A stretch of 64,000 bases of DNA. Origin: Naegleria gruberi (Eukaryota). Below are positions 32,645 to 64,000 of this stretch, piece by piece. Where the stretch lies: the NCBI GenBank assembly GCA_000004985.1, contig GG738904.1; one strand, 5' to 3'. The stretch's first letter is position 1. Each line of letters begins with the position of its first letter. The notes below the pieces were generated by a model that saw nothing but the letters and a program-made list of their open reading frames with translations, searched no databases and was not told where the DNA came from. The position numbers and the translations under genes were made by a program.

Positions 32645-34396
32645 TTATTTGGTCGGAATTTTAAGTGAATCCAGATTCAAATCACTTCTCAAATTCTTCA
32701 CCTTATTACTCTCAAACTTGACCTTATTCTTCTTAACATGTTGCTTTTGAGTTTGTTTCTGAAATTCCACAGTTTGCTTGAATCGATGATGAGTATCCAA
32801 CATCAAGACACATATTTCACTTTCCACATTATCAAACAGAGTATCAGTCAAATGTTCATTCTCACCACTTGCAAAGTAATCCAATTGTTCCTTAACTCTA
32901 TCTGCAGCACTCTTATTAATATTCACTGATTTGTCTCCATTGATATCGAGGAAATCAGTGTAAATTTCAAAGGCAATTTCGTACTTTTTCTTTTCAATTT
33001 CATGGAGATCCTTCTCAGTGTAGCCCTTCTTCTTCTTCTTTTTGTGTTGATGGTCCAAGTTGGAGGAGTTGGCAGTTGCAGAGCTACCTGAATCGGAGAG
33101 AGAATCAGAATGAGAATTTGGACTCATGTCATCATAGAGGAATACTTGAATTTCAAAGGACTTTTCACACAGGATTTTGTAATCTGTAATTTTGTCCAAT
33201 AGTAAGTAATTATCCAAACTCAATTCTTGTTTACAATGGTCCCTGAATAGCTTTCTCAATTTGTTATCCCTCATAGTATCCATCAAGAGGAAGGCGTTGG
33301 CTGCCTTGAGCTTTTTCGTATTACTTGCATCCTTTCGAATAGAGACAATGATTGAGGCAATCACTGATGGCAACACAATGCAAATGGAAACACACACCAC
33401 AATGAGTGAAATTGTAGTGATGGTTACATTAACGCTTCGAGAACTATCTTCCAATTCATTCAGATAGTCAACTGTTGGCTGGAATTCTTCACTGTATCCT
33501 GCAATGTCATATTTGTAAGCGTCAGATTCTAATAACGTCATGGCATATGAATAGTTTCCAATATTTGCCAATTCTAACATTTGAGTTTCAAGAGCAATGG
33601 CCTTGGAAGTTCTCAAATCAGCAACTGAAACATTATGAGTATAGGTATATCGCAAATTAGTTGGCAAATAGGCCAACATTTTCGTAATTTCAGTATTGAA
33701 CTTGGTCTTACTCGTTTCGTATTTTGCAGTATAATTGGCTGTCAGTTGCAAATTGTTATTGGTATAGACAGATGATCTGCAAGCTGCCACCATTCTTTCT
33801 CTATACAATGTAATGTTCAAATCCATACTACCAATTGCTGTTTGTAATTCCGAGTTGACCACATAGTAAGCCACAATCAGGATAAGAAGAGCCATAAAGG
33901 CAAGGAAATTTACAATAAGGGAACTCAAATTCAAAAATTTGACAGGAGTCAATTCAATCGTGGAACCGAAACAAGTTCTAATTTTGAGCATGGTTGTGGA
34001 GGAATGACTTTTAGTGGTAGTCTTTGAACCAATACCAGAGGCAGATCTAGGTTGTTTCTTCTCACCATTATATGGATTACCAGTTGCCACATCATGTTCC
34101 TCAGCAAAATTGGCATTTCTATTCGATTTGTCCATCAGAGCCATCGATCTCATCTCAATGGACACAGAACTGGACTGATGCAAATGATTATTATCATGAG
34201 ATTGCAAAGAACTCGTCGAAGTATTCAAATCAGTTGGCAAATGATGAGAACCATTGGCATAAAGTGAATAATCACAATTATTTGGATCAATTTTGTGAAG
34301 TTCTTCAATGACATTTTGGATGGTTGACTTTTCATGGAGTGAATTCGAAGGAGTGGAAAGAGAAGGATGTTCTGTGATATTCTCTTGTTGCTGCAT
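32645..34396 (-). CDS. two-TM sensor-type RGS-domain protein
   Basis: The first ATG is at 34396 (MQQQENITEHP...). TM1 is LIVNFLAFMALLILIVAYYVV, followed by an extracytoplasmic domain of about 190 aa, then TM2 ISLIVVCVSICIVLPSVIASIIV. The C-terminal RGS domain reads LRKLFRDHCKQELSLDNYLLLDKITDYK...EIAFEIYTDFLDINGDKSVNINKSAADRVKEQL...ICVLMLDTHHRFKQT and carries a low-complexity insert. Confidence 0.6.
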   Translation of the reverse strand: MQQQENITEHPSLSTPSNSLHEKSTIQNVIEELHKIDPNNCDYSLYANGSHHLPTDLNTSTSSLQSHDNNHLHQSSSVSIEMRSMALMDKSNRNANFAEEHDVATGNPYNGEKKQPRSASGIGSKTTTKSHSSTTMLKIRTCFGSTIELTPVKFLNLSSLIVNFLAFMALLILIVAYYVVNSELQTAIGSMDLNITLYRERMVAACRSSVYTNNNLQLTANYTAKYETSKTKFNTEITKMLAYLPTNLRYTYTHNVSVADLRTSKAIALETQMLELANIGNYSYAMTLLESDAYKYDIAGYSEEFQPTVDYLNELEDSSRSVNVTITTISLIVVCVSICIVLPSVIASIIVSIRKDASNTKKLKAANAFLLMDTMRDNKLRKLFRDHCKQELSLDNYLLLDKITDYKILCEKSFEIQVFLYDDMSPNSHSDSLSDSGSSATANSSNLDHQHKKKKKKGYTEKDLHEIEKKKYEIAFEIYTDFLDINGDKSVNINKSAADRVKEQLDYFASGENEHLTDTLFDNVESEICVLMLDTHHRFKQTVEFQKQTQKQHVKKNKVKFESNKVKNLRSDLNLDSLKIPTK

Positions 34397-35352
34397 TTTG
34401 GGAGGTGATTGAGTTGGATTGTTTTTTTGAGTTTGGATATTCAATAGTATGGAGGGTTATTAATATCACAATAGTTTTGAATAGCTTGTGTGTGATAAGA
34501 AGATGAAGATTAAATGTGCGCGCTGTTGGGTTAATGTAATAGAGCATGTAAGAGATTGAGAAAAGGAGTCCTTCATCTTATTTACAATTAGTTTCGTACT
34601 TCTAACAACTCCATTGGAAACTGGTTGGAAAATTCCCAAATTCAAACATTCAAGCATTGCAGCTTTGTTAAATATCAAACATAAAAGTCATTTGTAAAGT
34701 ACGTCCACTCTTTCGCGCACTAAATTTTTGACTCATGTGAAAAATCGATGGTCAATTGTTACGTTCTTGCATGAAGCGGTATTTTAAAATTAAGATCCTC
34801 ATGTGGTAAAGTAAATGAGAATTTGTTGATTTGGAGACATTTTAGGAAGATGACAGTTCTCCCATAACGAAGAAGCGTACTGATTGAAATTGTTCTTTGG
34901 TTTCGAATAATGTTAATATTACTGTAGTTTAATGTTAGAACTGTAGTTTCTGTTCACTGTGAAATATTTCCGCCACCAACACTTACTGCAACAAAATTAC
35001 GTAGAAATCACACTCGGGATGAAAAGAGATTAATCTCCACTGGTATTTTAAAGTAATATTTAATTATTCGAATGGTTTCTTATTCTATAACTAAGGTCAA
35101 ATTACTTGCCGATTTTAGAACGTCGACATTCGGCGAAAGAGAGATTGAGCCGAATAACAAAACTTTCCATAAATTTTCACTGCATGACCAATTTATTTGA
35201 TATTGGAAACTGATATTGACGCAGACGAAACAATTCTTCACTCGCATTACATTGTTTTGTGTGGATATACTTGTCTAATTTTCTTCTCTGGATGTAATTT
35301 TCATCTACAGTGAACCCAGTCGAAACTGTAGATTGATGGTTTGTTGATTCGT

Positions 35353-35721: not shown

Positions 35722-36153
35722 TCTTAATATTCGAAACTAATCTATATTTAGTTGACTTCAGTTTGGTGTGGACTCGCAAACACCTCAATTCTTGTCGTTT
35801 TATTTTTTTTTGATTTGTGGTTTAACAGCAAAACTTTAAATTCCAATTAAGGCTATTTTGAATATGTTCACTTTTGGCGGGAGATGTGAATCCAAGCTTA
35901 ACATATCTTATTAAAATAACAACTCTGGATAGAGATGATGGTGAGAGATAACTTTGGTTTATATGAAATATTATTCCCACTCAACAATATTATTCCCCAT
36001 TGGATTTATTAAAGTTTTGTAAATCGAAACTTCTTATTAAGAAAAATTGAAATGTTAACATGATTAAAAAATTTCAATTTTAGAATGAAATTCAATCTCT
36101 CTCGTATCCATGAAAAATTCAACAATTTCGAAAAGATTGAGCGAATCGTTTTA

Positions 36154-37476
36154 TTACATGAAATTCGAATACCTTTCAAATTCCCAATCAGTCACACAAT
36201 GATGCACATATTTATCCCATTCTGCTCTCTTAGCCATCTTGAACATGTTGAAATTATGCTCCAGGAAAACTTCCTTCATGAGTGGATCCTTTTCAAATTC
36301 CTTAATGGCTTCCAATAAATTTTCAGGTAATAGTTCGAGACCTTCCTTCTTCAATTCCTCATCCGAATAGTCAAAGACATTGTCTGTTCTGGCAGGTGGT
36401 GCTTCCAATTGATCTTCCATGCCTTGAACACCAGCAGCAATTAAGACACTAAATAAAAGATAGGGATTGGAGAGGAGATCTGGTGAACGAATCTCAACTG
36501 CAGCATCATTGGCACTGGTAAAGAGTGGAACTCTCAATAGGGCAGTTCTATTCTTGTATCCCCAACAGGCAATGGTTGGAGCTTCAAATCCATTCACCAA
36601 TCTCTTATAGGAATTGATGGTTGGATTGGCAATGGCTGTAATTCCCTTCACATGTTTCAAAATGCCGGCAACGTAGGATTTTCCTTGAGCTCCCAATTCA
36701 TCTTGAGCTCCTTCAAAGTTACCAAAGGCGTTGATTTCCTTTCCAGTTTCGTCTTGCTTGAACATTCTCATGTGAATATGTTGTCCACTTCCAGCTTGAT
36801 CTCTGAATGGTTTTGGCATGAAATTAATTTCCAATCCATGTCTGTCAGCAATCACATGAGACAATGACTTGAACATGACCAAATTATCAGCTTGTTTCAA
36901 CAAATCAACATGATTCATTTCAATTTCGTATTGACCTATTCCACATTCGTGATGCAAAACTTGAACTGGAATATTCAATCGTCTACATTCCAAAGAAAGG
37001 TCCATAATGAAAGCTTGTCCCTTAGCAAATGGATACATGGTTGAATATTTACATTGATCGAGTGGTTTTCTAGTTTCCTTATCTAACAAGTAGAATTCAG
37101 GTTCAATCTTGAATGTCATTCTTCTATTCTTTGCTGTCAAATACTTTTCAACAGTTCTTTCCAAGATATATCTACAATCAGAATCAAAATGAGCTCCAGA
37201 ATCTTTACCAACAACGTGGCACAAGACAACAATTCTTCTCATTGGCTTTTTTAACATTGGACAATTGACAGATTCAGGATTTGGATTGGAAATCATTGAA
37301 ATTGGAGGTAATTCAAAGATTGCTTTTGGATCTGGTCTCAAACGAAGATCACTCTGATTAACCAATGCAAATCCAACTGAAGATCCATCAATGGAAGCTC
37401 CTTTCTTCATGCAATCATCTTGTAATAATTCTTCAATGGTGATTGGTGGTGGATTTGAGAGAGTTGGAGTGGTCAT
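36154..37476 (-). CDS. glutamine synthetase, GSI (prokaryote-type) family
   Basis: 440 aa. The catalytic-domain signature is HMRMFK...NPTINSYKRLVNGFEAPTIACWGYKNRTALLRVP. The N-terminal beta-grasp region is present. ATG at 37476. Confidence 0.8.
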   Translation of the reverse strand: MTTPTLSNPPPITIEELLQDDCMKKGASIDGSSVGFALVNQSDLRLRPDPKAIFELPPISMISNPNPESVNCPMLKKPMRRIVVLCHVVGKDSGAHFDSDCRYILERTVEKYLTAKNRRMTFKIEPEFYLLDKETRKPLDQCKYSTMYPFAKGQAFIMDLSLECRRLNIPVQVLHHECGIGQYEIEMNHVDLLKQADNLVMFKSLSHVIADRHGLEINFMPKPFRDQAGSGQHIHMRMFKQDETGKEINAFGNFEGAQDELGAQGKSYVAGILKHVKGITAIANPTINSYKRLVNGFEAPTIACWGYKNRTALLRVPLFTSANDAAVEIRSPDLLSNPYLLFSVLIAAGVQGMEDQLEAPPARTDNVFDYSDEELKKEGLELLPENLLEAIKEFEKDPLMKEVFLEHNFNMFKMAKRAEWDKYVHHCVTDWEFERYSNFM

Positions 37477-38121
37477 ACAGTGTAATTTACCATGATTATC
37501 GACGAAACTGATGTCAATTCATTGGAAAATTGATTCAATTTCATTAAAACAACGTCATTAAAGATACCGATTGTAAAGCATTGAATTCAAGTGAAGGTGT
37601 GAAGGACTCTTACGCATTTTCGATAAAGTAAATTGGTTCGTTAGGGAGGTAGGTGGAGGCCATTTCGTTGATTTTTTTCTATTTGAAAATGTAAAAATTT
37701 TCATTAATTACTACTATTTATGGATCCCAAATTGAGAATTTCCTATTTTGTCTCTGACAATGACGGAACCATTTCTGGTATTGTAACTGCAGAGATGATA
37801 ATTGATTGTTTCTTTGCAAATAAATAAATTGAATGTTGCAATACATAAAAAATATAATTGGTAAAAATAATATTGAAAATAATATTAAATTATTTAATTT
37901 TGCGATTGTTTACTTTTTTGGCATATTGAAAAATATTATATTCAGGAGAAATTACAAAATTGAAAGTGCAAAATATCATTCTCATAATCTCAAGTTATGA
38001 AATTATCAAATTAATTAAATGACTTCATCTGAGCAATTTCACGTGTTTGGTAATTATCCAAAAATGGAAAGATAATAAATTTGAACGAAAGGAGAGGAAA
38101 ATTGATAGCAAGAAGAAAAAA

Positions 38122-38670
38122 ATGAATAGTCTGCTATCAAAGTCTTTCAAATTGATGCAAAGATGTTCTTCCAAACAACAAGTGCGGAGATTATTTTCAA
38201 TGTCACTTGTCCACAGAAATGACACACCAGTAATTATTGAAGATGAAGAAAAATCATATGCATTACCAGTCATGTTTCGAAACGTTCTTGAGGATGACAT
38301 TTCAAAATCTTCTAATCAATCTGTGGATATGAATTTAACTAACGAAATTATGGATCACAATTTCACAATGTTTGATATGATTGGCGACAAGGAATTACTA
38401 TGCAAACAAGCAATTGTTTGGTTGAATTTCCACTCTGATAAGACAGTTAAGGATTTGGAAGTATATTTAAGGGATTGTCTCAAATTAAACCATTGTAAAC
38501 TTAAATTTGATGCAAAATCTAAAAAATTAACAATTTCAGAAAAGGAAGGAAATTCATCAAAATCAATCTTTTTCAAGGATACTACAATTGAATCATCCCA
38601 TGAAAAGATGGATGGCATGAGTGTTCTTTCAAGGTGTAAAGCATATCCAATGTTCTCATTCATGGATTGA
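38122..38670 (+). CDS. hypothetical protein
   Basis: ORF 38047..38670. The first ATG is at 38122 in an aaaaaaaATG context. No domain recognised. Confidence 0.35.
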   Translation: MNSLLSKSFKLMQRCSSKQQVRRLFSMSLVHRNDTPVIIEDEEKSYALPVMFRNVLEDDISKSSNQSVDMNLTNEIMDHNFTMFDMIGDKELLCKQAIVWLNFHSDKTVKDLEVYLRDCLKLNHCKLKFDAKSKKLTISEKEGNSSKSIFFKDTTIESSHEKMDGMSVLSRCKAYPMFSFMD

Positions 38671-39214
38671 GAATTTCAATTTTCCTAACATTCCTGTAAA
38701 TAAACTTTGTAATCATATTCGACATCAATCTAGCTTTAAAAATTAATTCTATTTAATTTCAATTTTGTTTTTTGTCGTCCTGGGTGGGTATCTATCAGAT
38801 CATCCCTCATCAATACCATCTCCAATTATGAATCAATCACAAGTTTTTACTAATATTGTCGTGAGTAATCTAACACATCTTTTGTACTATCGAACGATCT
38901 TTGCATTCGGGTGTAATAAATTAAAATTCTTCATCGTGTTGTCTTTTTTATGAATTTGATGCGGGTTTAAAATCCAAAGCCATCATCATTTTGTTAATTA
39001 TTAATTTTTTTTAAAATTAAAATTAAAAAAACAAGAATGTTCTCTTCATATTCTTAACAACCATAGTCGGAGGCCATTATTAATTTCTCATAATTGATAT
39101 TAGAGCATTATCATCATCAATTTAACTAGCCATATTGTTTCAGTATTATTTGTAATTTTTGGCAATAATTTAATGTATTAGTGCCCATACATCATCCATA
39201 AATTACAAATGATT

Positions 39215-40210
39215 GTTTTCGGAATGTACAAAGAAAAACCGGATTAAACCTTAGATTGACTAGTTTGAGTATAGGTAGTAGTATTAGTATTAGTTGTTGT
39301 TGTGTCTTGTTCGGATTGATTTCTATTGAAAAAATCAAAGGAAGGATGATATAAACACATGACCAAAATTGAAAATATTAAAATTCCCAAACAATTCAAA
39401 AAATCATAAAACAATGATGAATAATTCCAGACAAAACTAACAGCACCCAATCCAACTGCAATAATTTGAAAAAATGTTGAAAATATCAAAACTGAAAGCA
39501 AAATGATAATTTTCAAAATGGGTTGTTTCCATGAATAGGATTGAGATTGATCTTTGAATTGTTTTCTTGTCTTGTTGAGGAGTATAATCACTCTTGAAAA
39601 CACAATCTATTCATTATTTCAAAATAATTTTAGTTTTCATAATTTGCATTTAGAATTATGAGAATGTTAAATGAAAACTTACTGAAATTGCAATTGTTTG
39701 AACAATTAATTGAATTGCAAAGAATGCGAAACAAGCAATCACGAATATGAACAATATATCATCAGCATATGGTATCCCAACAGTTTCTGTTGTCAATGTA
39801 CTATTCCTGTTTATCATAACATCTTGATAGAGTTGATCTGTTTCATTCACATTATTCACTTTCAAATAATTGTGAAATCGTTCAACAATGGAAATATTAC
39901 AAAAAGTATAAGCAGTTCTTGCACACAATGCCAATGTTTGAACAATCAACAATGTATTCACGAGAATGAGAACAATTCTCTGAGCCTTCCTCAATGTCTT
40001 CCAAGTTTGATTCCTCACAATGAAAATAATCATGACAAGAATGAGTGAAATGAACAACAAGATGAAGAGAAAGGAAATCGATTGATCTATAGCACTCAAC
40101 AGAGTATCATCAAAATCATCAATAGTAAACACTGGAGAGGAGACATTGTTGGTAGAAGATGACGTTTCGTTTACCTGGTAGTTTACTAGAAGAGCTAGTT
40201 CGGCAAGTTT
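39215..40210. repeat. inverted segmental duplication, arm A
   Basis: High nucleotide identity to 44125..45350 in the opposite orientation. Homology ends about 30 nt past the stop codon on one side and near the start of the coding region on the other. Confidence 0.7.
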
Positions 40211-40225
40211 TCCAACAGAATGCAT
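39244..40225 (-). CDS. multi-pass membrane protein, duplicate copy A (5 predicted TM); two exons
   Basis: Exon 1 is 40225..39683 (ATG MHSVGKL). The intron is 39607..39682 (76 nt, GTAAGT...AATAG, phase 0). Exon 2 is 39606..39244. It is near-identical to the copy at 44110..45334, except for an in-frame deletion of about 243 nt that removes two TM helices. Confidence 0.5.
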
Positions 40226-40956
40226 CTTTGTTTGTTTTTTTCTTTTGTGATTAGTGAAGTATGACAACGTTACAGGAATGAAAACGAATAACAATTTGAG
40301 AGATATGGATTACTAATTGGAAGAATAGTTGCAACTAACAAATATAGAAAATATTTCCTTGAAATATTTGCAAACCCCGAAGCACTCCAGAAATATTCAC
40401 AAATTCAAAAGTTAATTGTTTCTTTCAATCGATAATTATGAAGTTGCAGGTAGAAACAAGCTCTCTGCAACTGGTACTTTTCGGCAAGGAGTTATCTCGA
40501 AAAAAATGGAAGAAACCACCAGTTAAATAGTTCAATAAGGATGTACCAGAGAAGTAAGATTCAGTGATGCAATTCTATGACTACTACACTATCTAGATTT
40601 TCCCAAAAAACAATGTCTGCAAATGAGCCTGCTAGAGTTGACAGACTAGAAATATTTGCTGTAAACTCATCGAATCTTCAGTTTGAAAACATAGAGAGGG
40701 TAAACAAGCTAATTATTACAAAAAGAAATCTCAAAACTTCTATTTTCCAATTATTTACTCATTTCCTTTTGGTAAAGGATATTTGGCAATGGATTATGAA
40801 AATAATCTTGATAATTTAGTTTCATTCTTTCCATTTATGGATCAAGTTCGAAGGTTTCGTATGTCCAACCTGTTGGACTTTAGCAATGAGAAATAGAGCG
40901 CCAACGTATTGTGTTCAACACAGAGATACCACAGAACTTGGATTTATTCAAAAAAA

Positions 40957-43475
40957 ATGCAAAGACTAAACTTTATTAGAATCCTTTGCTGCTACTTGCT
41001 TACAACAATAATCTTCATGTCAACATGTGTTGTTGAATGTAGAAACATGCATGTCATTGACAAACAAAGTCAATTGCGAGATATATCACAACCTTTCACT
41101 GTGGTTTCTATTCGAAAGTATTACACAAGTTTCGTCAATCATTTGGCACCAATTATGACCTCTGGAGTGGAATTTCTTTCAGATAGTCGACCTCTCCAAG
41201 AATATTTCAATGTTTACTGCGTTTATACTTCAGTTTTCAGCAGTGGAAATTTGGCGCCAAATGACAATTCCATATTAAGTAATCTCAACTCTTCTATTTG
41301 TTCAAGTATAAATCATTTAGACGATTCCAACATGCCAATCGATGCTGCCCATAACAGTTATCTTGTTCTGAACCAAGAACCTTCCATCATCTTCTCCCCA
41401 AATAGTTTACTTCCACTTTGGTCAATTATCTTGAAAAATGCAATGGTTGACCAGACGATGAGGTATAAAGTTTGGAATTATTCGATTTCTGAAACGTTTA
41501 CAATGTATGCACTGTATGATAAAGCAACAAGTATGGAATATGTGTTGGATAGCGATCTAGTTTCGAATAGGGAAGGAATTGTAAAAGAATTGGAAGAGGA
41601 AATATGGAACGATTGTAAATTATTCGAAAGAGTGTACGAAATTCAAATGAGAGAAGGTTTAGGATTGGGATTTTCGTCAATCTCCATTTCTGAAAATAGG
41701 ATTTGCAATGAAACATTACAAAATTCAACATTTATGGAAGAATATCATCAAGCAATTTTGAGAATTGATTTATACTTGAATTTAATGTTGAATTATTCGA
41801 ATCTTGTGAATACTACTGGAAGTTTAACTCAAATGCTTCCAAGTTCCACTTTCTATTTTATGGATAATCTTATTGCTACCTTTAATCCAACCTTTCTAGT
41901 GGAAGCTATTCGAAATGTTTTACAAAATGGAGGATTTAACACATATTTGTCCTATTCGAAACCTTCCTCGAACTATGATATGGAATACTTCTCCATGCTT
42001 CAAAAATCAGATCTGAAACCAGTTTCTCAACTCATGATTCATCCAAATTGTTTCTGCTATTACAACTTGTATGCCTCTCAATATTATTTCAGAGATTCTT
42101 ACCTTCTCAAACTAATCTTCAATGATATAATCTATTTTGGAATATTTTTTATTGGAGTTTTCATCTTCCTCTTTAATTGTGTGAGTTACTGCTTGGATTG
42201 TAAACTTTTTGTAAAGAAGAGAATTCTCCTTCCCTTATTAGGACCTCCAACGTTGATTGTAATCTCAGCATGTTACACTGTATTTTTGAGATCGAAATTT
42301 TCAGTGGCCACTTATTGGATTCTTGTGATTATTGCTGTTTTTCCTGCTCCAATTCTAATTGGTACTTATTTAGTTTCCTTATTTAGATTTTCCTATTGAA
42401 AAATATGGATTTGTGGCAGAAAAAGATTTTCAAATCACCCAAAATTCAGAAACACTTGGCTTCCACATGTACTTCAATGGTATTTTCCATAATTACAACC
42501 TTAATTGTCCTTGTCATTTGTTTGGCACCGATTGTCACTACTTCTGTGGCTATTTTGTTTAGTTCCGCAAATATTCCACAAGAATTGTTTATTCTATTGA
42601 TGGGATTTGAAGTTCTCTTCATGCTATTGTTTGCATTGATATTTTTCATAGTTGACTTGATCAATACTGGAGCTGCAATGATTAAGAGGAAAGGTTTAGG
42701 ATATTATTTCTTCTATGATGATCCTTTCTATTACAGAATTGACTTGTTTATCATGATCTTAATGATGGGATCTGTCATTCCAATCATTGTTGGTTCAGTT
42801 GAGGATGGAACTCCCTATTTCATTGTTCGAAAGGTCTTTACAGTAGTTTTCTTTGTCATGTTCTATGCAATCATTGGTGGAACTGTGACAATTGCTCACT
42901 GGATCAACAAGTTCAGAAGACTGAAATCCAAATACAGAAATGCACAAGTTACCACATTGGAATCATTCTTGGAAGATCAGCAATTTAGAGAAATGTTTCG
43001 AACCTATTCCAAAAATGAATTTTCATTGGAAAATATTATCATGTATGAAGAATTGGAAAAGCTAAAAAAGAACAATAAGGTAACCCCTCAGGAATTGAAA
43101 TCTCTTCAAGAGAAATTCCTCCTTTCATCCTCTGTTCATGAAGTTAATTATCCATCGGCAGTTAAGAAGAACTTTCAAGAATTATTGGATTCGTATAAGG
43201 ATGAGGACGTTTCTTCCAATGACAGTGATTCAACCACACAAACAAAATCATCCAATTCCCTTAAACAATCAACAGGACTTCCAAAGAAGGGAACTGTTAT
43301 GTTGGAAAAGATGTTAGAATTGGTCATGCCAGAATTATTGAAAAACATGTTTGACACATTTTCTCGCTTAAAGACAACACCTGAATTTGGGCATTGGTTT
43401 GAGATGAAGCAAATACAGACAACAGAATTGGGAGAGGAACAACACCAAGAACAACCAAAAGATGAGAAAGTTTAA
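40957..43475 (+). CDS. large-ectodomain 7TM receptor-RGS fusion protein (apparent frameshift at about 42390-42400)
   Basis: ATG at 40957 gives the signal peptide MQRLNFIRILCCYLLTTIIFMSTCVVEC. The ectodomain is about 390 aa. There are 3 TM helices at the end of ORF 40909..42399 and 4 TM helices at the start of ORF 42396..43475, which makes 7TM. The C-terminal RGS domain reads LESFLEDQQFREMFRTYSKNEFSLENIIMYEELEKLKK...NYPSAVKKNFQELL. The two ORFs overlap by only 4 nt next to an AAAAA run. No intron of plausible size fits, so this is a 1-nt indel, either an assembly error or a pseudogene. Confidence 0.5.
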
Positions 43476-43699
43476 AAACAGCTTAATCCAATAAAAATAA
43501 CATCTCAAAGTATGGGCAGAAATCCTGTATTGTTGGATTTGTTCTCTATTCCAAGTCTACCTTGAATTTTAACCTTTTTCCTTCCTGAATGATGGATTGT
43601 TCACCAAAATGTCTTAAAATTGAACCATATTCAATTCATCACACTCAATATTTCGAGGTAAACACGTTAATGAGGAAATAAGATTCAAACTATTGTGCT

Positions 43700-43770
43700 C
43701 GTCTCGTGGTGTAATGGTAGCATAGTGGACTTTGAATCCATTGACGGAGGTTCGATTCCTCCCGAGACGG
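43700..43770 (+). tRNA. tRNA-Gln (anticodon TTG)
   Basis: CGTCTCGTGGTGTAATGGTAGCATAGTGGACTTTGAATCCATTGACGGAGGTTCGATTCCTCCCGAGACGG. The acceptor CGTCTCG/CGAGACG pairs perfectly. The anticodon loop is CTTTGAA. It matches eukaryotic tRNA-Gln-TTG. Confidence 0.85.
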
Positions 43771-44109
43771 TAAACGTGGCGAGCGTAAAAAATTTTGGTT
43801 TTTACAATGTGTAATAGCTCCAGATAAATTAAACAATAACACCAACCAGCTGACGCAGATTAATAACGCATATGGAAAGAGAATAAACCATTGGTTGGCT
43901 ATTATTGTAATGTTTGTTGTTCGGTTCAATGGTTATCTTCTGGAAACCAGTTCCATATTTGGCAAGTTGCAATATTCACACTTATCGAAAAAGTATGAAT
44001 ATCTCTAAAAAAACAGCCGGCTAGCAGCCTTGCAAGGTCATCTAATTGGTTTCCTTTCATTCCAACATTATCACAACAAAAACAAATAACACTGCATTCG
44101 TTAGAAACA

Positions 44110-45334
44110 GTGAAGAAACTTGCCCACCTTTCAAATTTCAAAACTTTTACTGCCACTACTGACGACTCTTCAAATAACAATGTCTCCTCTCCAGTGTTTA
44201 CTATTGATGATTTTGATGATACTCTGTTGAGTGCCATAGATCAGTCGATTTCCTTTCTCTTCATCTTGTTGTTCATTTCACTCATTCTTGTCATGATTAT
44301 TTTCATTGTGAGGAATCAAACTTGGAAGACACTGAGGAAGGCTCAAAGAATTGTTCTCATTCTCGTGAATACATTGTTGATTGTTCAAACATTGGCATTG
44401 TGTGCAAGAACTGCTTATACTTTTTGTAATATTTCCATTGTTGAACGATTTCACAATTATTTGAAAGTGAATAATGTGAATGAAACAGATCAACTCTATC
44501 AAGATGTTATGATCAATAGGAATAGTACATTGACAACAGAAACTGTTGGGATACCATATGCTGATTTAGTGGGAATGTTTTTCTCGAATGGAATTGAAAC
44601 CTTTTTAATACTGTTAGCTCTCTTGGTGATTAATGAAATTGTGCACTACATTTCTCATCTATTCTTCAATCTGATCAAATATTCACAAGGAATATTGAAA
44701 TCAAAGAGAACCAAAATTATCAGAAAGATATTCGATATTTCCTTTTTCATTAGTTCTGGAGTTTTCTTTGTCTTGCTTATTGCAATTTTAGTAATGCTCA
44801 TAATAGTCAAACTGAAAGTAATTGAAGATATATTGTTCATATTCGTGATTGCTTGTTTCGCATTCTTTGCAATTCAATTAATTGTTCAAACAATTGCAAT
44901 TTCAGTAAGTTTTCATTTAACATTCTCATAATTCTAAATGCTAATACTCATTACTCATTTTGAAATTCAAATAGATTGTATTTTCAAGAGTGATTATACT
45001 CCTCAACAAGACAAGAAAACAATTCAAAGATCAATCTCAATCCTATTCATGGAAACAACCCATTCTGAAAATTATCATTTTGCTTTCAGTTTTGATATTT
45101 TCAACATTTTTTCAAATTATTGCAGTTGGATTGGGTGCTGTTAGTTTTGTTTGGAATTATTCATCATTATTTTATGATTTTTTGAATTGTTTGGGAATTT
45201 TAATATTTTCAATTTTGGTCATGTGTTTATATCATCCTTCCTTTGATTTTTTCAATAGAAATCAATCCGAACAAGACACAACAAATACTAATACCGATAC
45301 TAACAATACTCAAACTAGTCAATCTAAGGTTTAA
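44110..45334 (+). CDS. multi-pass membrane protein, duplicate copy B (7 predicted TM); two exons, start codon unresolved
   Basis: Exon 1 runs to 44904. The intron is 44905..44974 (70 nt, GTAAGT...AAATAG, phase 0). Exon 2 is 44975..45334. The reading frame stays open upstream to 43999 without any ATG, and the position homologous to copy A's ATG is CTG. So the start has either been lost or lies in an unseen upstream exon. Confidence 0.45.
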
Positions 45335-45350
45335 TCCGGTTTTTCTTTGT
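44125..45350. repeat. inverted segmental duplication, arm B
   Basis: Partner of 39215..40210. It carries an extra 243-nt coding segment that arm A lacks. Confidence 0.7.
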
Positions 45351-45577
45351 ACAATCTTCCTTATGGTAGAATATGTTCCAAAAATTACTATTAATACTAT
45401 TATTTAAATCATGATGAGATGATGTGGTGAAATTCTTGGAGTTAACAGATGTGAAACTACTCCAACAATCAACAGGGTCGGGTTGCCAATATTTTGGTGT
45501 AATTTTTTCATATGAACAATCCAAAATAGGAATTTATTATTATTTAAAATAATTTAAAAATTGCAATTTAAAAAAAA

Positions 45578-50057: not shown

Positions 50058-51755
50058 TTAATAAATAAATGTTAATATAAACTTACTAAAAACGGTTGAG
50101 TTTGGAAACTTTTTAAATTTTTTGATAAATGCCTTCAAAATCTTTTGCTTTGCAAGTGAAGTAATTTCGGATTGGTTCAATAACAATTCAAGGCTATTCT
50201 CTGAAAGATCAGTAATTGTGAGCGATGGCCCCACAGCAAAACAACTTGCAATAGCAATGTGAATCTGTTCAATACGGTCTAATTTGAAAAGAATGCAGAA
50301 TCTCAATAAAATTGATGCTTCTTTCACAATTTTTAAAATGCATTCGTCATCACCTAAATATCGTGCCAGTTCAATTAATTTAAATTTCATATCAAAATCC
50401 GTTATTGATACCGTATCGCTTGTTAGATAATTTACATAGGTGTCAAACACTTGAATGTGATTTGTTGGTTCTTGAAAAATATCATTTTCAATAGGTCTCA
50501 AATCAAGAATAATTTGATTTTCATCTTTTTCATTGAAATCCTTCCAATTTGAGCTCAACATGGTTGATAAATATTTTGATTTTTTCAAATACATTTTTGA
50601 AAGTCTAAAATCTCGTTCTTCAAATCTAATAATCACTAGTTCCATATCATTTTCATCTATAATTTGTAAATCCTCATTGTGTAAATCCTCAATTACAAAC
50701 TGATCATTAGGATTTTCAATAAATTTAAAATTATTAGTATTCACACTCTTTAAACGCCAGAATAGTGCCTTTTTCAGATCTTTTTCAACTCCATATCCGT
50801 TAGAATATGCATTTGCAACATTATTTTGAGATTGTTTTACATCCTTTTCAGCACCTTTCATGTACCACTCGAAAGCCTTTTCTAAATTTTTCTCAACTCC
50901 CCTTCCATTACGATATAAAAAGCCAATATTAGTATATGAATCTGTATTGCCATTTTCAGAAGCTGTTAGATACCATGTCATAGCTTTTGCATAATCTTTC
51001 TCAATTCCTTCTCCATTCTCGTAGGACCATCCAACATTGAATTGTGCATCTGCATGACCATTTTTGGCAGCTCTCAAATACCATTCTACTGCTTTGGATA
51101 GATCTTTTTCTACTCCTTCTGCATAATCATACGCACATGCAACATTGAATTGTGCTTTTGCATAACCATTTTTAGCGGATTTCAAATACCACTCAAATGA
51201 TTTAGGTTTATCTTGTTCAACTCCAACTCCCTTATCGTATGATGCTCCAATGTTGAACTGTGCAATTTCATTACCATTTTCTGCAGCTTTTAAATACCAT
51301 TCCATGGATTTCGAAAGATCCTTAGCAACCCCTTCACCTGAACGATAGAGAACTCCAATATTATTTTGTGATTTTGCAAGATTCCTATCGGCAGCTTTCA
51401 GATACCATTCCATTGCTTTCTTATAATCTTGTTCTACTCCTAAACCATGATGATAGAAATAACCAACTTTATGTATTGATTCTAAACATCCTTGCTCTGC
51501 ACCTTTAGAAAACCATTCAAAGGCCTTCTCACTATCTTTTTCAACTCCACTTCCATCCATATATTTGCACCCTAGAGTGTAATACGATTCGGTGCTTTGA
51601 TTTACGGCTTGTTTTTTACTACTTGGTTCGTTTTTAATAATTTGTTGTTGCGGATCATTACTTTCCGAAGATGAAGGAGTGTCTGTGTTATTAATAATCA
51701 TTTGATCATTCTCATTAATTTCATCATGTTCTGGTGCCTCTCTACATCTTTTCAT
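50058..51755 (-). CDS. Sel1-repeat protein with C-terminal BTB/POZ-like domain
   Basis: About eight Sel1 repeats of the form G.GVEQDY.KAMEWYLKAA..G...AQ.N.G. The C-terminal region DFRLSKMYLKKSKYLSTMLSSNWKDF...VFDTYVNYLTSDTVSITDFDMKFKLIELARYLGDDEC is BTB-like. The true ATG is at 51755 (MKRCREAPEHDE) after an A-rich leader. Confidence 0.65.
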   Translation of the reverse strand: MKRCREAPEHDEINENDQMIINNTDTPSSSESNDPQQQIIKNEPSSKKQAVNQSTESYYTLGCKYMDGSGVEKDSEKAFEWFSKGAEQGCLESIHKVGYFYHHGLGVEQDYKKAMEWYLKAADRNLAKSQNNIGVLYRSGEGVAKDLSKSMEWYLKAAENGNEIAQFNIGASYDKGVGVEQDKPKSFEWYLKSAKNGYAKAQFNVACAYDYAEGVEKDLSKAVEWYLRAAKNGHADAQFNVGWSYENGEGIEKDYAKAMTWYLTASENGNTDSYTNIGFLYRNGRGVEKNLEKAFEWYMKGAEKDVKQSQNNVANAYSNGYGVEKDLKKALFWRLKSVNTNNFKFIENPNDQFVIEDLHNEDLQIIDENDMELVIIRFEERDFRLSKMYLKKSKYLSTMLSSNWKDFNEKDENQIILDLRPIENDIFQEPTNHIQVFDTYVNYLTSDTVSITDFDMKFKLIELARYLGDDECILKIVKEASILLRFCILFKLDRIEQIHIAIASCFAVGPSLTITDLSENSLELLLNQSEITSLAKQKILKAFIKKFKKFPNSTVFSKFILTFIY

Positions 51756-52159
51756 TTTTTTTTGTTTTTTTTGTTTTTTCAAAACTTTACAATGAGTTCA
51801 GAGTTAGCATGTTGTAGAATTCACTTCGTTTTATTGTCAATATTTTGTTTATCAAATTGGGAACAACGAAAGGTTTTGAAAGTTACACAATTAATGTAGA
51901 ATAATCGAAATTGTGAATATAGAAGTTTCCATATTTTTCATTTTACCAAGTGAGTGTTGCATCTTATTGGGACTCATATTTGTCATGATTTATCCACACC
52001 ACGACCATGAGCTTAAATTTTCAATGTTTATGTAAAGTTTCAAATCGATTTTATCTGAAAGTCAATATAACACTATATTGATGACTAATAGTGTCTATTA
52101 CTGCCTTTTGATAGATTATTATCTATAAGTACATTTTGTGATACGCATATTAATGTGTA

Positions 52160-62600: not shown

Positions 62601-64000
62601 AGATGCCATTACCTCTGTTGATAACTTGGCTGTACTTACAAGATTTACAGTCAAGTTGAGCACTAAGTTGGGAGAAATGTTTGCTTTCTTTAGTGTACCT
62701 CATGGAAGACCTGTTAACGCTGCTGTTACTTTTGATCAGGTTGAGCTGTACAGAAATGAAGTTAGAGATTTTGCCACCATTGTTCAAGATTCATACGATT
62801 CATTCATTGAAACCTATACTAGAGGCAGTAGTGGTGGAGTGGTTGGTAAATATCCAGCTATTGATGAACTAGTTGGTGGACCTGCAAATTGTACTGGTGA
62901 TAGAAACTGTTCATTACAAGCAATGTTATCGAGCTACGTCTCACAAGTTACTACCATGGCTGAGGAATATTTCAATCCACTCTTTTCTGCCCAAGTAGAA
63001 CCAACATTTTACAAATATTTGTCACTCTATAATATGAATGAGGAAATTTATGATAGAGTAATGAAGATTCTAGATTTACTCGAAAAGCACACCTCAGAGT
63101 CCTCTAAAGTTATCTCAATTGTAACATTTGCTGTATTTTTCCTCTTTCTATTTTTGGTTTCCTTCTTGCTGTACAGATCTGCTCAAGTGTACGATGATGA
63201 AATTACCACAATTCGTTCCCTGTTGAGCTACTTACCACTTGATTATTTGGAATCTAATGAACAAATTAAGAATTTTATATTCTTCAATGGTTTCAAATCA
63301 GAAAAGGTTGCTAAAAAAGAAGAAGATGAAAATTCAATGAACAACTTACTTGATTCTATGGTAGATGGTGCATTCTTATCCAATGAGAGAGGTGAAGTTG
63401 TGCTTTTCAATAAGGCTGCTCAAAAGGTATGTCAAATATTTTNNNNNNNNNNNNNNNNNNNNNNNNNNNNNNNNNNNNNNNNNNNNNNNNNNATTACCAG
63501 ATACAAGGGTGCAAAGTACATGGTCTGTTTCATTAAAGATATCACTCCTGAAAAGAAACAAAAAGCTCTATTAGCAGAAGAAAAGAAGAACTCTGAAGCA
63601 TTATTGAGAAATATTCTACCTGAGGCAGTTGCCAGTAAATTGAAATCAGGAGATACCTTCATTGCTGAAAGATTTACTGATGTGACTTGTTTCTTCTCTG
63701 ATATGTAAGTAGTTTCATAGTATTTCCATTTTTACTAAGCAATTAAAATAGGGTCGGATTTACAAGTTTATCTTCCAATATGAATCCTTCTGATTTAGTG
63801 TTAATGTTGAATGAAATTGTAAATGGTTTTGATGACTTGACTGACAAGTACACTTTAGAAAAGATTAAAACTATTGGAGATGCTTATTTCTGTGTGGGTG
63901 GACTGTAAGTATTTAACTGTAAATGATAACCATCTAACTATTTCAATAACCAGTCATAACAACTCTCAATCAGATCACCCTGAACGTGTTCTCAGATTTT
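59611..64000 (+). CDS. multi-pass membrane PAS-domain class III nucleotidyl (adenylyl/guanylyl) cyclase, 3'-partial
   Basis: There is an N-terminal cluster of about 10 TM helices, then a large middle region, then further TM helices, then a PAS-like segment (MVDGAFLSNERGEVVLFNKAAQKVCQIF...ITRYKGAKYMVCFIKDIT). The cyclase domain is split by short introns: 63705..63751 (47 nt, GTAAGT) and 63905..63953 (49 nt, GTAAGT). Splicing gives FFSDMVGFTSLSSNMNPSDLVLMLNEIVNGFDDLTDKYTLEKIKTIGDAYFCVGGL. The probable ATG is at 59611 (aaaaaagATG), with an alternative at 59545. A 50-nt N gap lies in the coding region. Confidence 0.7.
63443..63492. other. assembly gap (50 N)
   Basis: Run of N characters inside the PAS-coding part of the cyclase gene. 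The flanking reading frame is preserved. Confidence 0.95.

What the first reader, a model, noticed from the sequence alone, without database searches (positions are those of the whole stretch)
39215..45350. Inverted duplication of a 7TM-like membrane-protein gene flanks a receptor-RGS gene and tRNA-Gln
Two arms of about 1.0 and 1.2 kb (39215-40210 on the minus strand, 44125-45350 on the plus strand) are near-identical across both exons and share the same intron position. The intron sequences have diverged (76 nt against 70 nt, unrelated after the first roughly 35 nt), whereas the exons are almost identical. That pattern suggests purifying selection or gene conversion limited to the exons. Copy A has a clean in-frame 243-nt deletion that removes two TM helices, leaving 5TM against 7TM. 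Copy B has lost the ATG (CTG at the homologous position). The arms sit 5'-ends-inward around a 3.9-kb core that carries the ectodomain-7TM-RGS gene and tRNA-Gln. That geometry could support recombination-mediated inversion of the core, or it may mark a recent duplication breakpoint.
Basis: seen in the sequence. Interest (0 to 1): 0.7.

Follow-up and report, generated by a model that had tools for sequence, protein, structure and literature searches.

The report
Inverted receptor-like gene pair, gene-converted
Two head-to-head copies of an unannotated, Naegleria-only receptor-like membrane-protein gene flank a 7TM-RGS gene and a tRNA-Gln gene in Naegleria gruberi, and they look like an old duplicate pair kept about 98% identical by gene conversion, which is real but a fairly ordinary kind of genome evolution.

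Summary
The window is part of the Naegleria gruberi NEG-M reference scaffold. Copy A (minus strand, 40225-39244) and copy B (plus strand, 44092-45334) form the only long repeat in the 64 kb.

- **Identity tract:** they are about 98% identical from about codon 27 to about 20 nt past the stop codon.
- **Shared intron:** the intron position is shared, and it is ancestral for the family.
- **Copy A lesion:** A lacks 261 nt (87 codons, covering TM3 and TM4), not 243 nt.
- **Copy B lesion:** B has CTG where A has ATG.

Outside the tract (the first 20-30 codons, the promoter and a patch of the intron) the copies are homologous but heavily diverged. A third copy on another scaffold is mosaic relative to A and B. 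This fits an old inverted duplication homogenised by ectopic gene conversion, rather than a fresh duplication or selection acting only on exons.

All 10 coding differences within the tract are synonymous.

The 7TM-RGS gene between the copies carries a 1-nt frameshift in this assembly. Inversion of the core is geometrically possible but could not be tested here. Interest is modest.

The parts
39244..40225 (-). Copy A of the Naegleria-specific GPCR-like 7TM gene. Exon 1 is 40225-39683, the intron is 39682-39607 (76 nt, GTAAGT..TAG, phase 0) and exon 2 is 39606-39244. It encodes 301 aa with 5 TM helices and has an ATG start. It lacks TM3 and TM4; the deletion junction lies between 39761 and 39760.
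   Evidence: not present in the protein database as an annotated gene
44092..45334 (+). Copy B. Exon 1 is 44092-44904, the intron is 44905-44974 (70 nt) and exon 2 is 44975-45334. It encodes 390 aa with 7 TM helices. CTG sits at the position homologous to A's ATG. The frame is open from 43999, with no in-frame ATG before TM1.
39222..40160 (-). High-identity (gene-converted) tract, arm A. It is about 98% identical to arm B and is interrupted by a diverged intron patch of about 20 nt (about 39616-39641).
44166..45356 (+). High-identity tract, arm B. It includes the B-only 261-nt segment.
44566..44826 (+). A 261-nt (87-codon) segment encoding TM3, the intracellular loop and TM4. It is present in B, in the third copy and in all family relatives, and absent from A.
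40161..40225 (-). Unconverted, diverged 5' coding part of copy A (first 21-22 codons). It matches the 74-nt counterpart in B at only 44 positions.
44092..44165 (+). Unconverted, diverged 5' coding part of copy B (first about 25 codons, beginning with CTG).
40957..43475 (+). Core gene with signal peptide, ectodomain, seven hydrophobic segments and an RGS domain (839 aa after repair). It has a 1-nt frameshift: TATTG where TAT TTG is expected, at 42394-42398. It is annotated as NAEGRDRAFT_52786 (EFC38815.1), with a model that splices out TM1-5.
43699..43771 (+). tRNA-Gln (anticodon UUG), about 320 nt upstream of copy B's CTG.
38812..38895 (-). Stop-riddled remnant of a protein-kinase gene downstream of copy A. 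It is homologous to the kinase fused into the gene model of the third copy.
43929..43992 (+). Speculative alternative first exon for copy B. An ATG at 43929 is followed by 21 codons, and a 112-nt intron (43993-44104, GTATGA..TTAG) would join in frame. There is no supporting evidence beyond frame compatibility.

Best explanation
Copies A and B are an old head-to-head pair of paralogues of a Naegleria-restricted gene family that encodes GPCR-like 7TM proteins. Repeated ectopic (interlocus) gene conversion between the inverted copies, and probably with a third copy (NAEGRDRAFT_76620, on another scaffold), has overwritten most of the gene body. That is why the body, from about codon 27 to about 20 nt past the stop codon, is about 98% identical, including synonymous sites and part of the intron. 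The promoter, the first 20-30 codons, a patch of the intron, the low-complexity C-tail and the TM3-TM4 segment keep their older divergence.

In this haplotype or assembly each copy has one recent lesion. A has an in-frame 261-nt deletion that removes the conserved TM3-TM4 hairpin. B has ATG changed to CTG. Both are therefore most likely young pseudogenes or hypomorphs, and the complete ATG-plus-7TM version survives as the third copy.

The gene between them is a member of the known Naegleria 7TM-RGS family. I see no evidence that its position next to tRNA-Gln, inside the repeat, is anything more than a by-product of the duplication geometry.

**Shown:**
- the repeat, its boundaries and the two lesions;
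- the mosaic pattern among the three copies;
- the family distribution and the predicted fold.

**Inferred:**
- conversion as the mechanism;
- a receptor function;
- the pseudogene status of A and B.
For: - **Tract against flanks.** The tract is sharply bounded at 97.5-99% identity. The adjacent 5' coding sequence matches at only 44 positions between its 65-nt (A) and 74-nt (B) versions, yet is still homologous ('AAAAACAAA.AA...TGCATTC', 'AAACTTGCC'; z 6.3). The upstream flank has z 6.0, with 0 of 500 shuffles reaching the observed score.
- **Noncoding and synonymous identity.** The identity extends to the first 37 nt of the intron and to synonymous sites: dS is 0.06 within the tract, against flanks that can barely be aligned.
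- **Mosaic three-copy pattern.** Copy C (P0001) has an N-terminus and a tail like A. It is 129/130 and 128/129 identical to B in the two flanking blocks but only 68/87 identical in TM3-TM4.
- **Selection filter.** 10 synonymous and 0 non-synonymous differences in 258 codons (P about 2e-7 under neutrality).
- **Family.** There are 15 relatives, and every one that carries a source name is a Naegleria protein (N. gruberi or N. lovaniensis); the rest are unnamed metagenome or Logan ORFs. None has a Pfam domain, and all 13 aligned relatives keep TM3-TM4. The intron position is conserved in an N. lovaniensis paralogue at 31% identity.
- **Assembly quality.** The only run of N is at 63.4 kb, and 10 of 10 intronless ORFs match the reference proteins exactly.
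Against: - No DNA of the third copy could be obtained, so segment-by-segment phylogeny rests on protein comparison only.
- Some of the diverged patches (the intron centre and the T/N-rich tail) are low-complexity sequence and could have diverged quickly by slippage without any conversion history.
- With 10:0 synonymous differences, A and B could still be functional: a 5TM variant, CUG initiation, or the candidate upstream exon found. That would contradict the pseudogene part of the explanation.
- Three lesions in three adjacent genes (the 261-nt deletion, CTG, and the frameshift) could reflect local assembly or sequence error rather than biology.
Confidence: 0.7

Rival explanations
1. A young partial duplication. 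About 1.2 kb of gene body was copied once, recently and in inverted orientation, onto a site 4 kb away. The ends differ only because the copy was partial, and no recurrent conversion is involved.
For: - Within-tract divergence is low and fairly even: 1.3% in coding sequence, dS 0.06, which is only about twice the between-strain dS of the neighbouring GS gene (0.033).
- The 3' outer flanks show no significant similarity (z 2.3).
Against: - The reading frame continues, homologous but diverged, upstream of the tract in both copies, down to the ATG/CTG and the A-rich leader. The promoter flanks also retain similarity.
- A copy pasted onto a pre-existing paralogue is, by definition, a conversion event.
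- B's TM3-TM4 segment is 22% diverged in protein from copy C's, while the adjoining blocks are 99% or more identical.
Confidence: 0.14
2. Assembly artefact. Divergent haplotypes or a paralogue from elsewhere in the heterozygous NEG-M genome were mis-joined, creating a false inverted second arm, or false lesions.
For: - The reference is a draft whose third, near-identical copy sits on an orphan 8.9-kb scaffold.
- Three adjacent genes each carry a lesion.
- An independent metagenome assembly containing N. gruberi-like DNA yielded the GS contig but no contig with this gene.
Against: - There are no gaps or N runs between 36 and 63 kb.
- Each arm runs seamlessly into unique sequence on both sides and has its own diverged 5' end, intron patch, tail and 261-nt indel.
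- The surrounding ORFs are exact matches to the reference proteins.
Confidence: 0.07
3. A recombinational inversion switch. Crossing-over within the 400-nt block between the start codons and the 261-nt indel would invert the 3.9-kb core. It would join A's promoter and ATG to B's complete 7TM body, giving one intact gene and one doubly defective gene. The two complementary lesions would then represent an OFF state that can flip to ON.
For: - The geometry is exactly right. The repeats are inverted, their 5' ends face inward, and 388 nt of about 98.5% identity lie between the start-codon lesion and the indel.
- Gene conversion, which is the non-crossover outcome of the same recombination, evidently occurs here.
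Against: - There is no evidence for the other orientation.
- No recombinase gene or specific site was found in the core.
- The only intact copy known (P0001) is not the predicted inversion product. Its TM3-TM4 differs from B's, and its tail and downstream GS context are like A's.
- Complementary lesions in two decaying paralogues are not improbable by chance.
Confidence: 0.04
4. Both copies are fully functional and kept alike by purifying selection alone, with A as a 5TM isoform and B using a non-AUG or upstream-exon start. No conversion is involved.
For: - 10 synonymous and 0 non-synonymous differences.
- Both frames are intact to the same stop codon.
- A frame-compatible upstream exon exists for B.
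Against: - Purifying selection cannot hold synonymous sites and 37 nt of intron at 98-100% while the adjacent coding sequence and promoter diverge until they can barely be aligned.
- A lacks helices that contain family-invariant residues.
Confidence: 0.05

Closest known systems
Ectopic gene conversion between inverted paralogues or palindrome arms, for example the arm-to-arm conversion in human Y-chromosome palindromes
   Same: The copies are inverted and a few kb apart. Identity of about 98% or more extends to non-coding and synonymous sites and is sharply bounded. Older divergence is retained outside the tract.
   Different: The arms are only about 1 kb long. The tract starts and ends inside or just past a single gene. 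The copies carry different structural lesions. No population or pedigree data exist here to show conversion directly.
Naegleria 7TM-RGS proteins (28 in N. fowleri; Bosch et al. 2022, PMC9283941) and plant AtRGS1
   Same: The core gene has an N-terminal ectodomain, seven hydrophobic segments and a C-terminal RGS domain (Pfam PF00615). This is the architecture described for the family.
   Different: The reading frame is broken by a 1-nt deletion in this assembly, and the annotated model omits five TM segments. The ectodomain has no recognisable domain: no EGF, lectin or GPS match was found. GAP activity was not tested.
G-protein-coupled receptors, with the best structural matches in the class C TM domains GPR156 and GABA-B (also the V2 receptor and Ste2)
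   Different: Sequence identity is 4-13%. There is no Pfam or PDB sequence match. Foldseek E-values are only 0.03 or weaker. The family has its own motifs (MKRNQ after TM1, xAGI before TM3, LYHPxF after TM7, a C-terminal -x-V) in place of DRY- or NPxxY-type motifs. Coupling to G proteins is unknown.
Inverted-repeat-mediated inversions by homologous recombination, for example the int22h inversions of the human F8 gene or flip-flop of the 2-micron plasmid and chloroplast inverted repeats (my own knowledge)
   Same: Inverted repeats of about 1 kb at about 98% identity flank a unique core, which is a substrate that could invert.
   Different: No second orientation has been observed and there is no dedicated recombinase. 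Nothing shows that an inversion would be regulated or selected.

Membership tests
Interlocus (ectopic) gene conversion between paralogues | A sharply bounded tract of very high identity, flanked by sequence that is homologous but much more diverged. | tested here: met
   The tract is 97.5-99% identical. The 5' coding sequence matches at 44 positions between its 65-nt and 74-nt versions, and the promoter flank has z 6.0.
Interlocus (ectopic) gene conversion between paralogues | Identity includes neutral sites (synonymous and intronic), so selection alone cannot explain it. | tested here: met
   The first 37 nt of the intron are identical, and dS is 0.06 within the tract.
Interlocus (ectopic) gene conversion between paralogues | Different segments of the gene give incongruent relationships among three or more copies. 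| tested here: inconclusive
   At protein level the pattern is mosaic: C resembles A at the N-terminus and tail, C, A and B are alike in the tract, and C differs from B in TM3-TM4 (68/87 identical). DNA of copy C was not obtainable, so no formal test such as GENECONV could be run.
GPCR superfamily (7TM receptors) | Seven transmembrane helices, with the N-terminus outside and the C-terminus inside. | tested here: met
   There are 7 hydropathy peaks in B and 7 long helices in the AlphaFold model. The topology is inferred from the positive-inside rule and from N-glycosylation sequons, and is not a tool result.
GPCR superfamily (7TM receptors) | Fold similarity to solved GPCR structures. | tested here: met
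GPCR superfamily (7TM receptors) | Sequence membership in a described GPCR family. | tested here: not met
   No Pfam match for B or for 10 relatives. No hit of the family profile to any PDB sequence at E of 10 or better.
GPCR superfamily (7TM receptors) | Ligand-dependent coupling to heterotrimeric G proteins. | not testable with these tools
   This needs experiments.
7TM-RGS proteins (AtRGS1-like; the Naegleria 7TM RGS family) | An RGS domain C-terminal to the membrane domain. | tested here: met
   PF00615, 29-30 bits against a cutoff of 23.9, at residues 668-746 of the repaired protein.
7TM-RGS proteins (AtRGS1-like; the Naegleria 7TM RGS family) | Seven TM segments preceding the RGS domain. 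| tested here: met
   Seven hydropathy peaks lie between residues 391 and 640, plus a signal peptide.
7TM-RGS proteins (AtRGS1-like; the Naegleria 7TM RGS family) | An uninterrupted reading frame. | tested here: not met
   The window has TATTG at 42394-42398, where the homologue L002 has TATTTG. The two ORFs overlap in different frames.
Invertible DNA switch | Inverted repeats flanking the invertible segment. | tested here: met
Invertible DNA switch | Both orientations present in the cell population. | not testable with these tools
   No reads or alternative assembly of this locus could be reached.
Invertible DNA switch | A dedicated recombinase encoded in or beside the element. | tested here: not met
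   The core holds only the RGS gene and the tRNA. Pfam scans of the neighbouring ORFs found GS, RGS and Sel1 domains.
tRNA-Gln | A cloverleaf with a UUG anticodon that matches the tRNA covariance model. | tested here: met
   ARAGORN and Rfam RF00005 at 68.8 bits.

The most novel reading that the evidence does not exclude
The two copies are complementary half-defective cassettes: A has a start codon but no TM3-TM4, and B has a full body but no start codon. Homologous crossing-over in the 388-nt identical block between the two lesions would invert the core carrying the 7TM-RGS gene and tRNA-Gln. That would reconstitute one intact receptor gene under A's promoter. This would be a eukaryotic, recombination-based ON/OFF (or allele-shuffling) switch for a lineage-specific GPCR-like receptor sitting next to a G-protein regulator.
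Probability: 0.04. Interest if true: 0.75.

Novelty: new member of a known kind. Interest (0 to 1): 0.3.

Why it matters
- **Annotation gaps.** It documents two unannotated genes, one mis-modelled gene (NAEGRDRAFT_52786) and one fused gene model (NAEGRDRAFT_76620) in the N. gruberi reference.
- **A candidate receptor family.** It defines a Naegleria-restricted family with a GPCR-like predicted fold. Receptors upstream of the large G-alpha and 7TM-RGS repertoire in this lineage are essentially unknown: PMC9283941 reports only one weak cAR-like candidate in N. fowleri, plus unnamed 7TM proteins.
- **Evidence of ectopic recombination.** It gives a clean small example of ectopic gene conversion in a heterolobosean. 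That bears indirectly on whether homologous recombination between dispersed repeats is active in Naegleria.
- **Limits.** None of this changes current concepts. It would become interesting only if the core proved to invert, or if the family proved to be real G-protein-coupled receptors.

Tried and rejected
- **Looking up the spliced proteins.** I worked around this with B's exon 1, with P0001, and with a substring of P0001 in an alignment.
- **Independent contigs.** Searches for contigs carrying A's or B's exon-1 ORFs, or P0001 itself, found nothing on record. A scan of JGI metagenomes with six peptide patterns gave 389 pattern matches but no confirmed relative. The assembly therefore has no independent check.
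- **Single-sequence AlphaFold of P0001.** The model was unusable (pLDDT 42). The afdb50 fold library was unavailable.
- **Mobile-element hypothesis** (inverted terminal repeats plus a tRNA target). Rejected: the 'repeats' are the bodies of an ordinary two-exon cellular gene with paralogues elsewhere, and no transposase, integrase or reverse transcriptase is present in the core.
- **The 261-nt segment as an intron or alternative exon.** Rejected: it has no GT-AG boundaries, it encodes conserved TM3-TM4, and it is present in all aligned relatives.
- **The 7TM gene as a truncated paralogue of the neighbouring 7TM-RGS gene.** Rejected: no similarity was found by tblastn within the window.
- **Conserved linkage of this family with RGS genes.** Not seen at two N. 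lovaniensis paralogue loci.
- **P0001 as a simple allele of copy A.** Doubtful: its kinase portion has only a stop-riddled remnant, 46% identical over 28 aa, in the window.
- **An upstream exon to rescue copy B.** One frame-compatible candidate was found among 85 combinatorial possibilities. It is not evidence.
Full report
**Source of the window.** Ten of ten long intronless ORFs in the window are exact matches to Naegleria gruberi proteins (EFC388xx, D2VWxx) on a 297,120-bp scaffold. The window is therefore part of the N. gruberi NEG-M reference assembly. It is about 33% G+C and has a single run of N at 63443-63492.

**The observation.** The inverted repeat is real. Four co-linear arm pairs (399, 123, 333 and 79 nt at 98, 98, 98 and 87%) link 39222-40160 on the minus strand to 44166-45356 on the plus strand. 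It is the only repeat of 60 nt or more in the 64 kb.

The gene models read directly from the sequence are as follows.
- Copy A: ATG at 40225, exon 1 to 39683, a 76-nt GTAAGT..TAG phase-0 intron, exon 2 to the TAA at 39244, 301 aa.
- Copy B: exon 1 44092-44904, a 70-nt intron, exon 2 44975-45334, 390 aa.

At the position of A's ATG, B has CTG. B's frame is open from 43999 but has no in-frame ATG before the middle of TM1.

A lacks 261 nt (87 codons, B 44566-44826) with a blunt junction. Hydropathy gives 7 peaks in B and 5 in A, and the deleted segment corresponds to helices 3 and 4 of the structural model.

The 5' ends face inward around a 3.87-kb core. The core holds an RGS-domain gene and tRNA-Gln(UUG) at 43699-43771.

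**Pattern of identity.** The high-identity tract does not coincide with the exons.
- It begins about 65-75 nt downstream of the start codons, at about 40148-40160 / 44166-44178.
- It runs through exon 1, the first 37 nt of the intron, the last part of the intron and all of exon 2.
- It ends about 20 nt beyond the stop codon.

Upstream of it, the first 21-25 codons match at only 44 positions between the 65-nt (A) and 74-nt (B) versions, with three indels. They are still recognisably homologous, including the A-rich leader and 'TGCATTC' (z 6.3). The promoter-side flanks retain faint similarity (z 6.0, 0 of 500 shuffles). The 3' outer flanks do not (z 2.3).

Inside the tract there are 10 coding differences in 258 shared codons, and all are synonymous. 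That gives dS 0.06 and dN 0, with P about 2e-7 if mutations were unfiltered. For scale, the neighbouring glutamine synthetase gene differs from an environmental N. gruberi-like contig (L001, 98.7% identical overall) by 9 synonymous and 0 non-synonymous changes, dS 0.033.

**A third copy.** The only close relative among 5.8 billion proteins is P0001, which is EFC35723.1 / NAEGRDRAFT_76620. It is a 622-aa gene model on an 8,912-bp N. gruberi scaffold.

Its first about 386 residues are a complete version of this protein. It has an N-terminus like A's (MHSVGKIAELALLVNYQVNETSS...), the TM3-TM4 segment, and a tail like A's. The model is then fused to a kinase fragment and to the last 65 residues of glutamine synthetase.

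Compared with B, the blocks flanking TM3-TM4 are 129/130 and 128/129 identical, but TM3-TM4 itself is only 68/87 identical.

The window keeps just a stop-riddled remnant of the kinase at 38812-38895 on the minus strand ('KTCD*FIIGDGI' against 'KTCDLFMIGDGI'). The other scaffold is therefore syntenic (7TM, kinase, GS) but is not a simple allele.

Neither A nor B appears in the protein database, so both are unannotated.

**What the gene is.** A full HMMER scan of 1.84 billion representatives with B's exon 1 found 15 relatives at 22-35% identity. Every one that carries a source name is a Naegleria protein: N. gruberi D2VIT1, D2VMX4, D2V500 and D2UZ73, and N. lovaniensis A0AA88KT16 and A0AA88GE85. 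The others are unnamed metagenome or Logan ORFs. None has a Pfam domain.

The alignment shows family motifs (MKRNQ after TM1, xAGI before TM3, LYHPxF after TM7, a C-terminal -x-V). TM3-TM4 is present in every aligned relative, and nearly invariant residues lie inside the segment that A has lost.

The intron sits at the identical alignment position and phase in an N. lovaniensis paralogue that is 31% identical. Several metagenome ORFs end in '..NVS', the read-through of GTAAGT. The shared intron position in A and B is therefore simply ancestral.

I therefore call it a lineage-specific protein with a GPCR-like fold. I do not call it a member of any described GPCR family.

**The core gene.** The two ORFs 40909-42399 and 42396-43475 overlap in different frames. 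A homologue from another metagenome (P0039 on locus L002, 57% identical) reads straight through, as ...FRFTYLKNMEFF..., with TATTTG where the window has TATTG.

Adding one T gives an 839-aa protein with a signal peptide, an ectodomain of about 360 aa with no recognisable domain, seven hydrophobic segments (residues 391-640) and an RGS domain (residues 668-746). This is the 7TM-RGS architecture known from plants and described as a 28-member family in N. fowleri (PMC9283941; see also PMC3971589).

The official model (EFC38815.1, NAEGRDRAFT_52786, 586 aa) avoids the frameshift by splicing out TM1-5. Whether the missing T is a sequencing error or a real mutation cannot be decided here.

**Mechanism.** The most economical reading is an old head-to-head duplication. 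The promoter, the 5' coding sequence and TM3-TM4 retain the old divergence. The gene bodies have been overwritten by ectopic gene conversion between the inverted copies, and probably with the third copy.

Selection alone cannot explain the pattern. Identity includes intronic and synonymous sites, while adjacent coding sequence has diverged until it can barely be aligned. A single young partial duplication is formally the same thing as one conversion event onto a pre-existing paralogue.

The 10:0 synonymous pattern shows that the variants now distinguishing A and B passed through a functional gene. Because conversion can import such variants from an intact donor, it does not prove that A and B are functional now.

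A has lost a conserved helix pair and B has lost its start codon. I therefore consider both to be recent pseudogenes or hypomorphs in this haplotype, with moderate confidence. B could be rescued by CUG initiation, or by a frame-compatible upstream exon (ATG at 43929, a 112-nt intron at 43993-44104). That exon is one of 85 combinatorial candidates and has no support.

**Inversion.** The geometry would allow homologous crossing-over to invert the core. A crossover in the 388-nt block between the two lesions would create one intact gene, made of A's promoter and ATG plus B's body. This is an attractive idea, but nothing supports it.
- No second orientation could be examined.
- There is no recombinase gene in the core.
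- The only intact copy (P0001) is not the predicted recombinant.

I give it about 4%.

**Artefact.** A mis-assembly is unlikely, at about 7%. Each arm has private sequence features and continuous unique flanks, and there are no gaps. It cannot be excluded without reads. Three adjacent lesions and an orphan scaffold holding a third copy justify checking.

**Verdict.** The finding is a new example of a known phenomenon. As by-products it yields an unannotated Naegleria-specific GPCR-like family and several annotation errors. Interest is modest, at 0.3.

Noticed in passing
window 42394-42398 (within gene 40957-43475, +): There is a 1-nt frameshift (TATTG instead of TAT TTG) between TM3 and TM4 of the 7TM-RGS gene. 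The reference annotation NAEGRDRAFT_52786 hides it with an artificial intron that removes TM1-5. It could be a sequencing error or a real pseudogenising mutation.
   Followed up: partly
window 32645-34444 (-): A second RGS-domain gene (599-aa ORF, PF00615 E 3.6e-7) lies about 6 kb from the pair. It resembles the core gene only weakly, and only around the RGS domain (29% over 62 aa). This exact ORF is not in the protein collection.
   Followed up: partly
window 38812-38895 (-): A protein-kinase pseudogene remnant with in-frame stops lies between copy A and the glutamine synthetase gene. Its intact-looking counterpart is fused into gene model NAEGRDRAFT_76620 on another scaffold.
   Followed up: partly
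window 39244-39252 and 45326-45334; 43467-43475: Both 7TM copies end in ...SQSKV*, the neighbouring 7TM-RGS protein ends in ...DEKV*, and most full-length family relatives end in -x-V or -x-I. This may be a shared C-terminal sorting signal (ER export or PDZ-type).
   Followed up: no
window 44377-44408 vs 44878-44909 (and 39918-39949 vs 39678-39709): A 32-nt internal direct repeat (75% identical) encodes 'LLIVQTLALCA' in TM2 and 'QLIVQTIAIS' in TM5. This could be a trace of internal duplication, or convergence of TM sequence.
   Followed up: no
L001 (ENA ERZ929261, contig k127_55239) = window 36123-38694: A metagenome assembly contains N. gruberi-like DNA that is 98.7% identical to the window, with an identical GS protein (9 synonymous differences). 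It is an independent strain or haplotype that could be mined for this locus. The contig stops about 530 nt short of arm A.
   Followed up: partly
L004 8924-10429 and L005 5309-6814 (N. lovaniensis PYSW02000016.1 end and PYSW02000085.1): The closest N. lovaniensis family member (P0025) is present in two identical copies with identical downstream neighbours. One is at the end of a 689-kb contig and one is on a 22.7-kb contig. This is probably a haplotig or a terminal duplication. A gene with a weak phage-integrase hit lies upstream in L004.
   Followed up: no
window 38047-38670 (+): A 207-aa ORF with no Pfam match lies between the kinase remnant and GS. A 182-aa gene was called at L001 26-574, which maps inside this ORF by coordinates. 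It is not in the protein collection as an exact sequence.
   Followed up: no
window 50058-51782 (-): An ORF encoding eight Sel1 repeats (PF08238, E 1.3e-73). It is unrelated to the finding.
   Followed up: no
window 63443-63492: The only assembly gap in the window, a run of 50 N.
   Followed up: no
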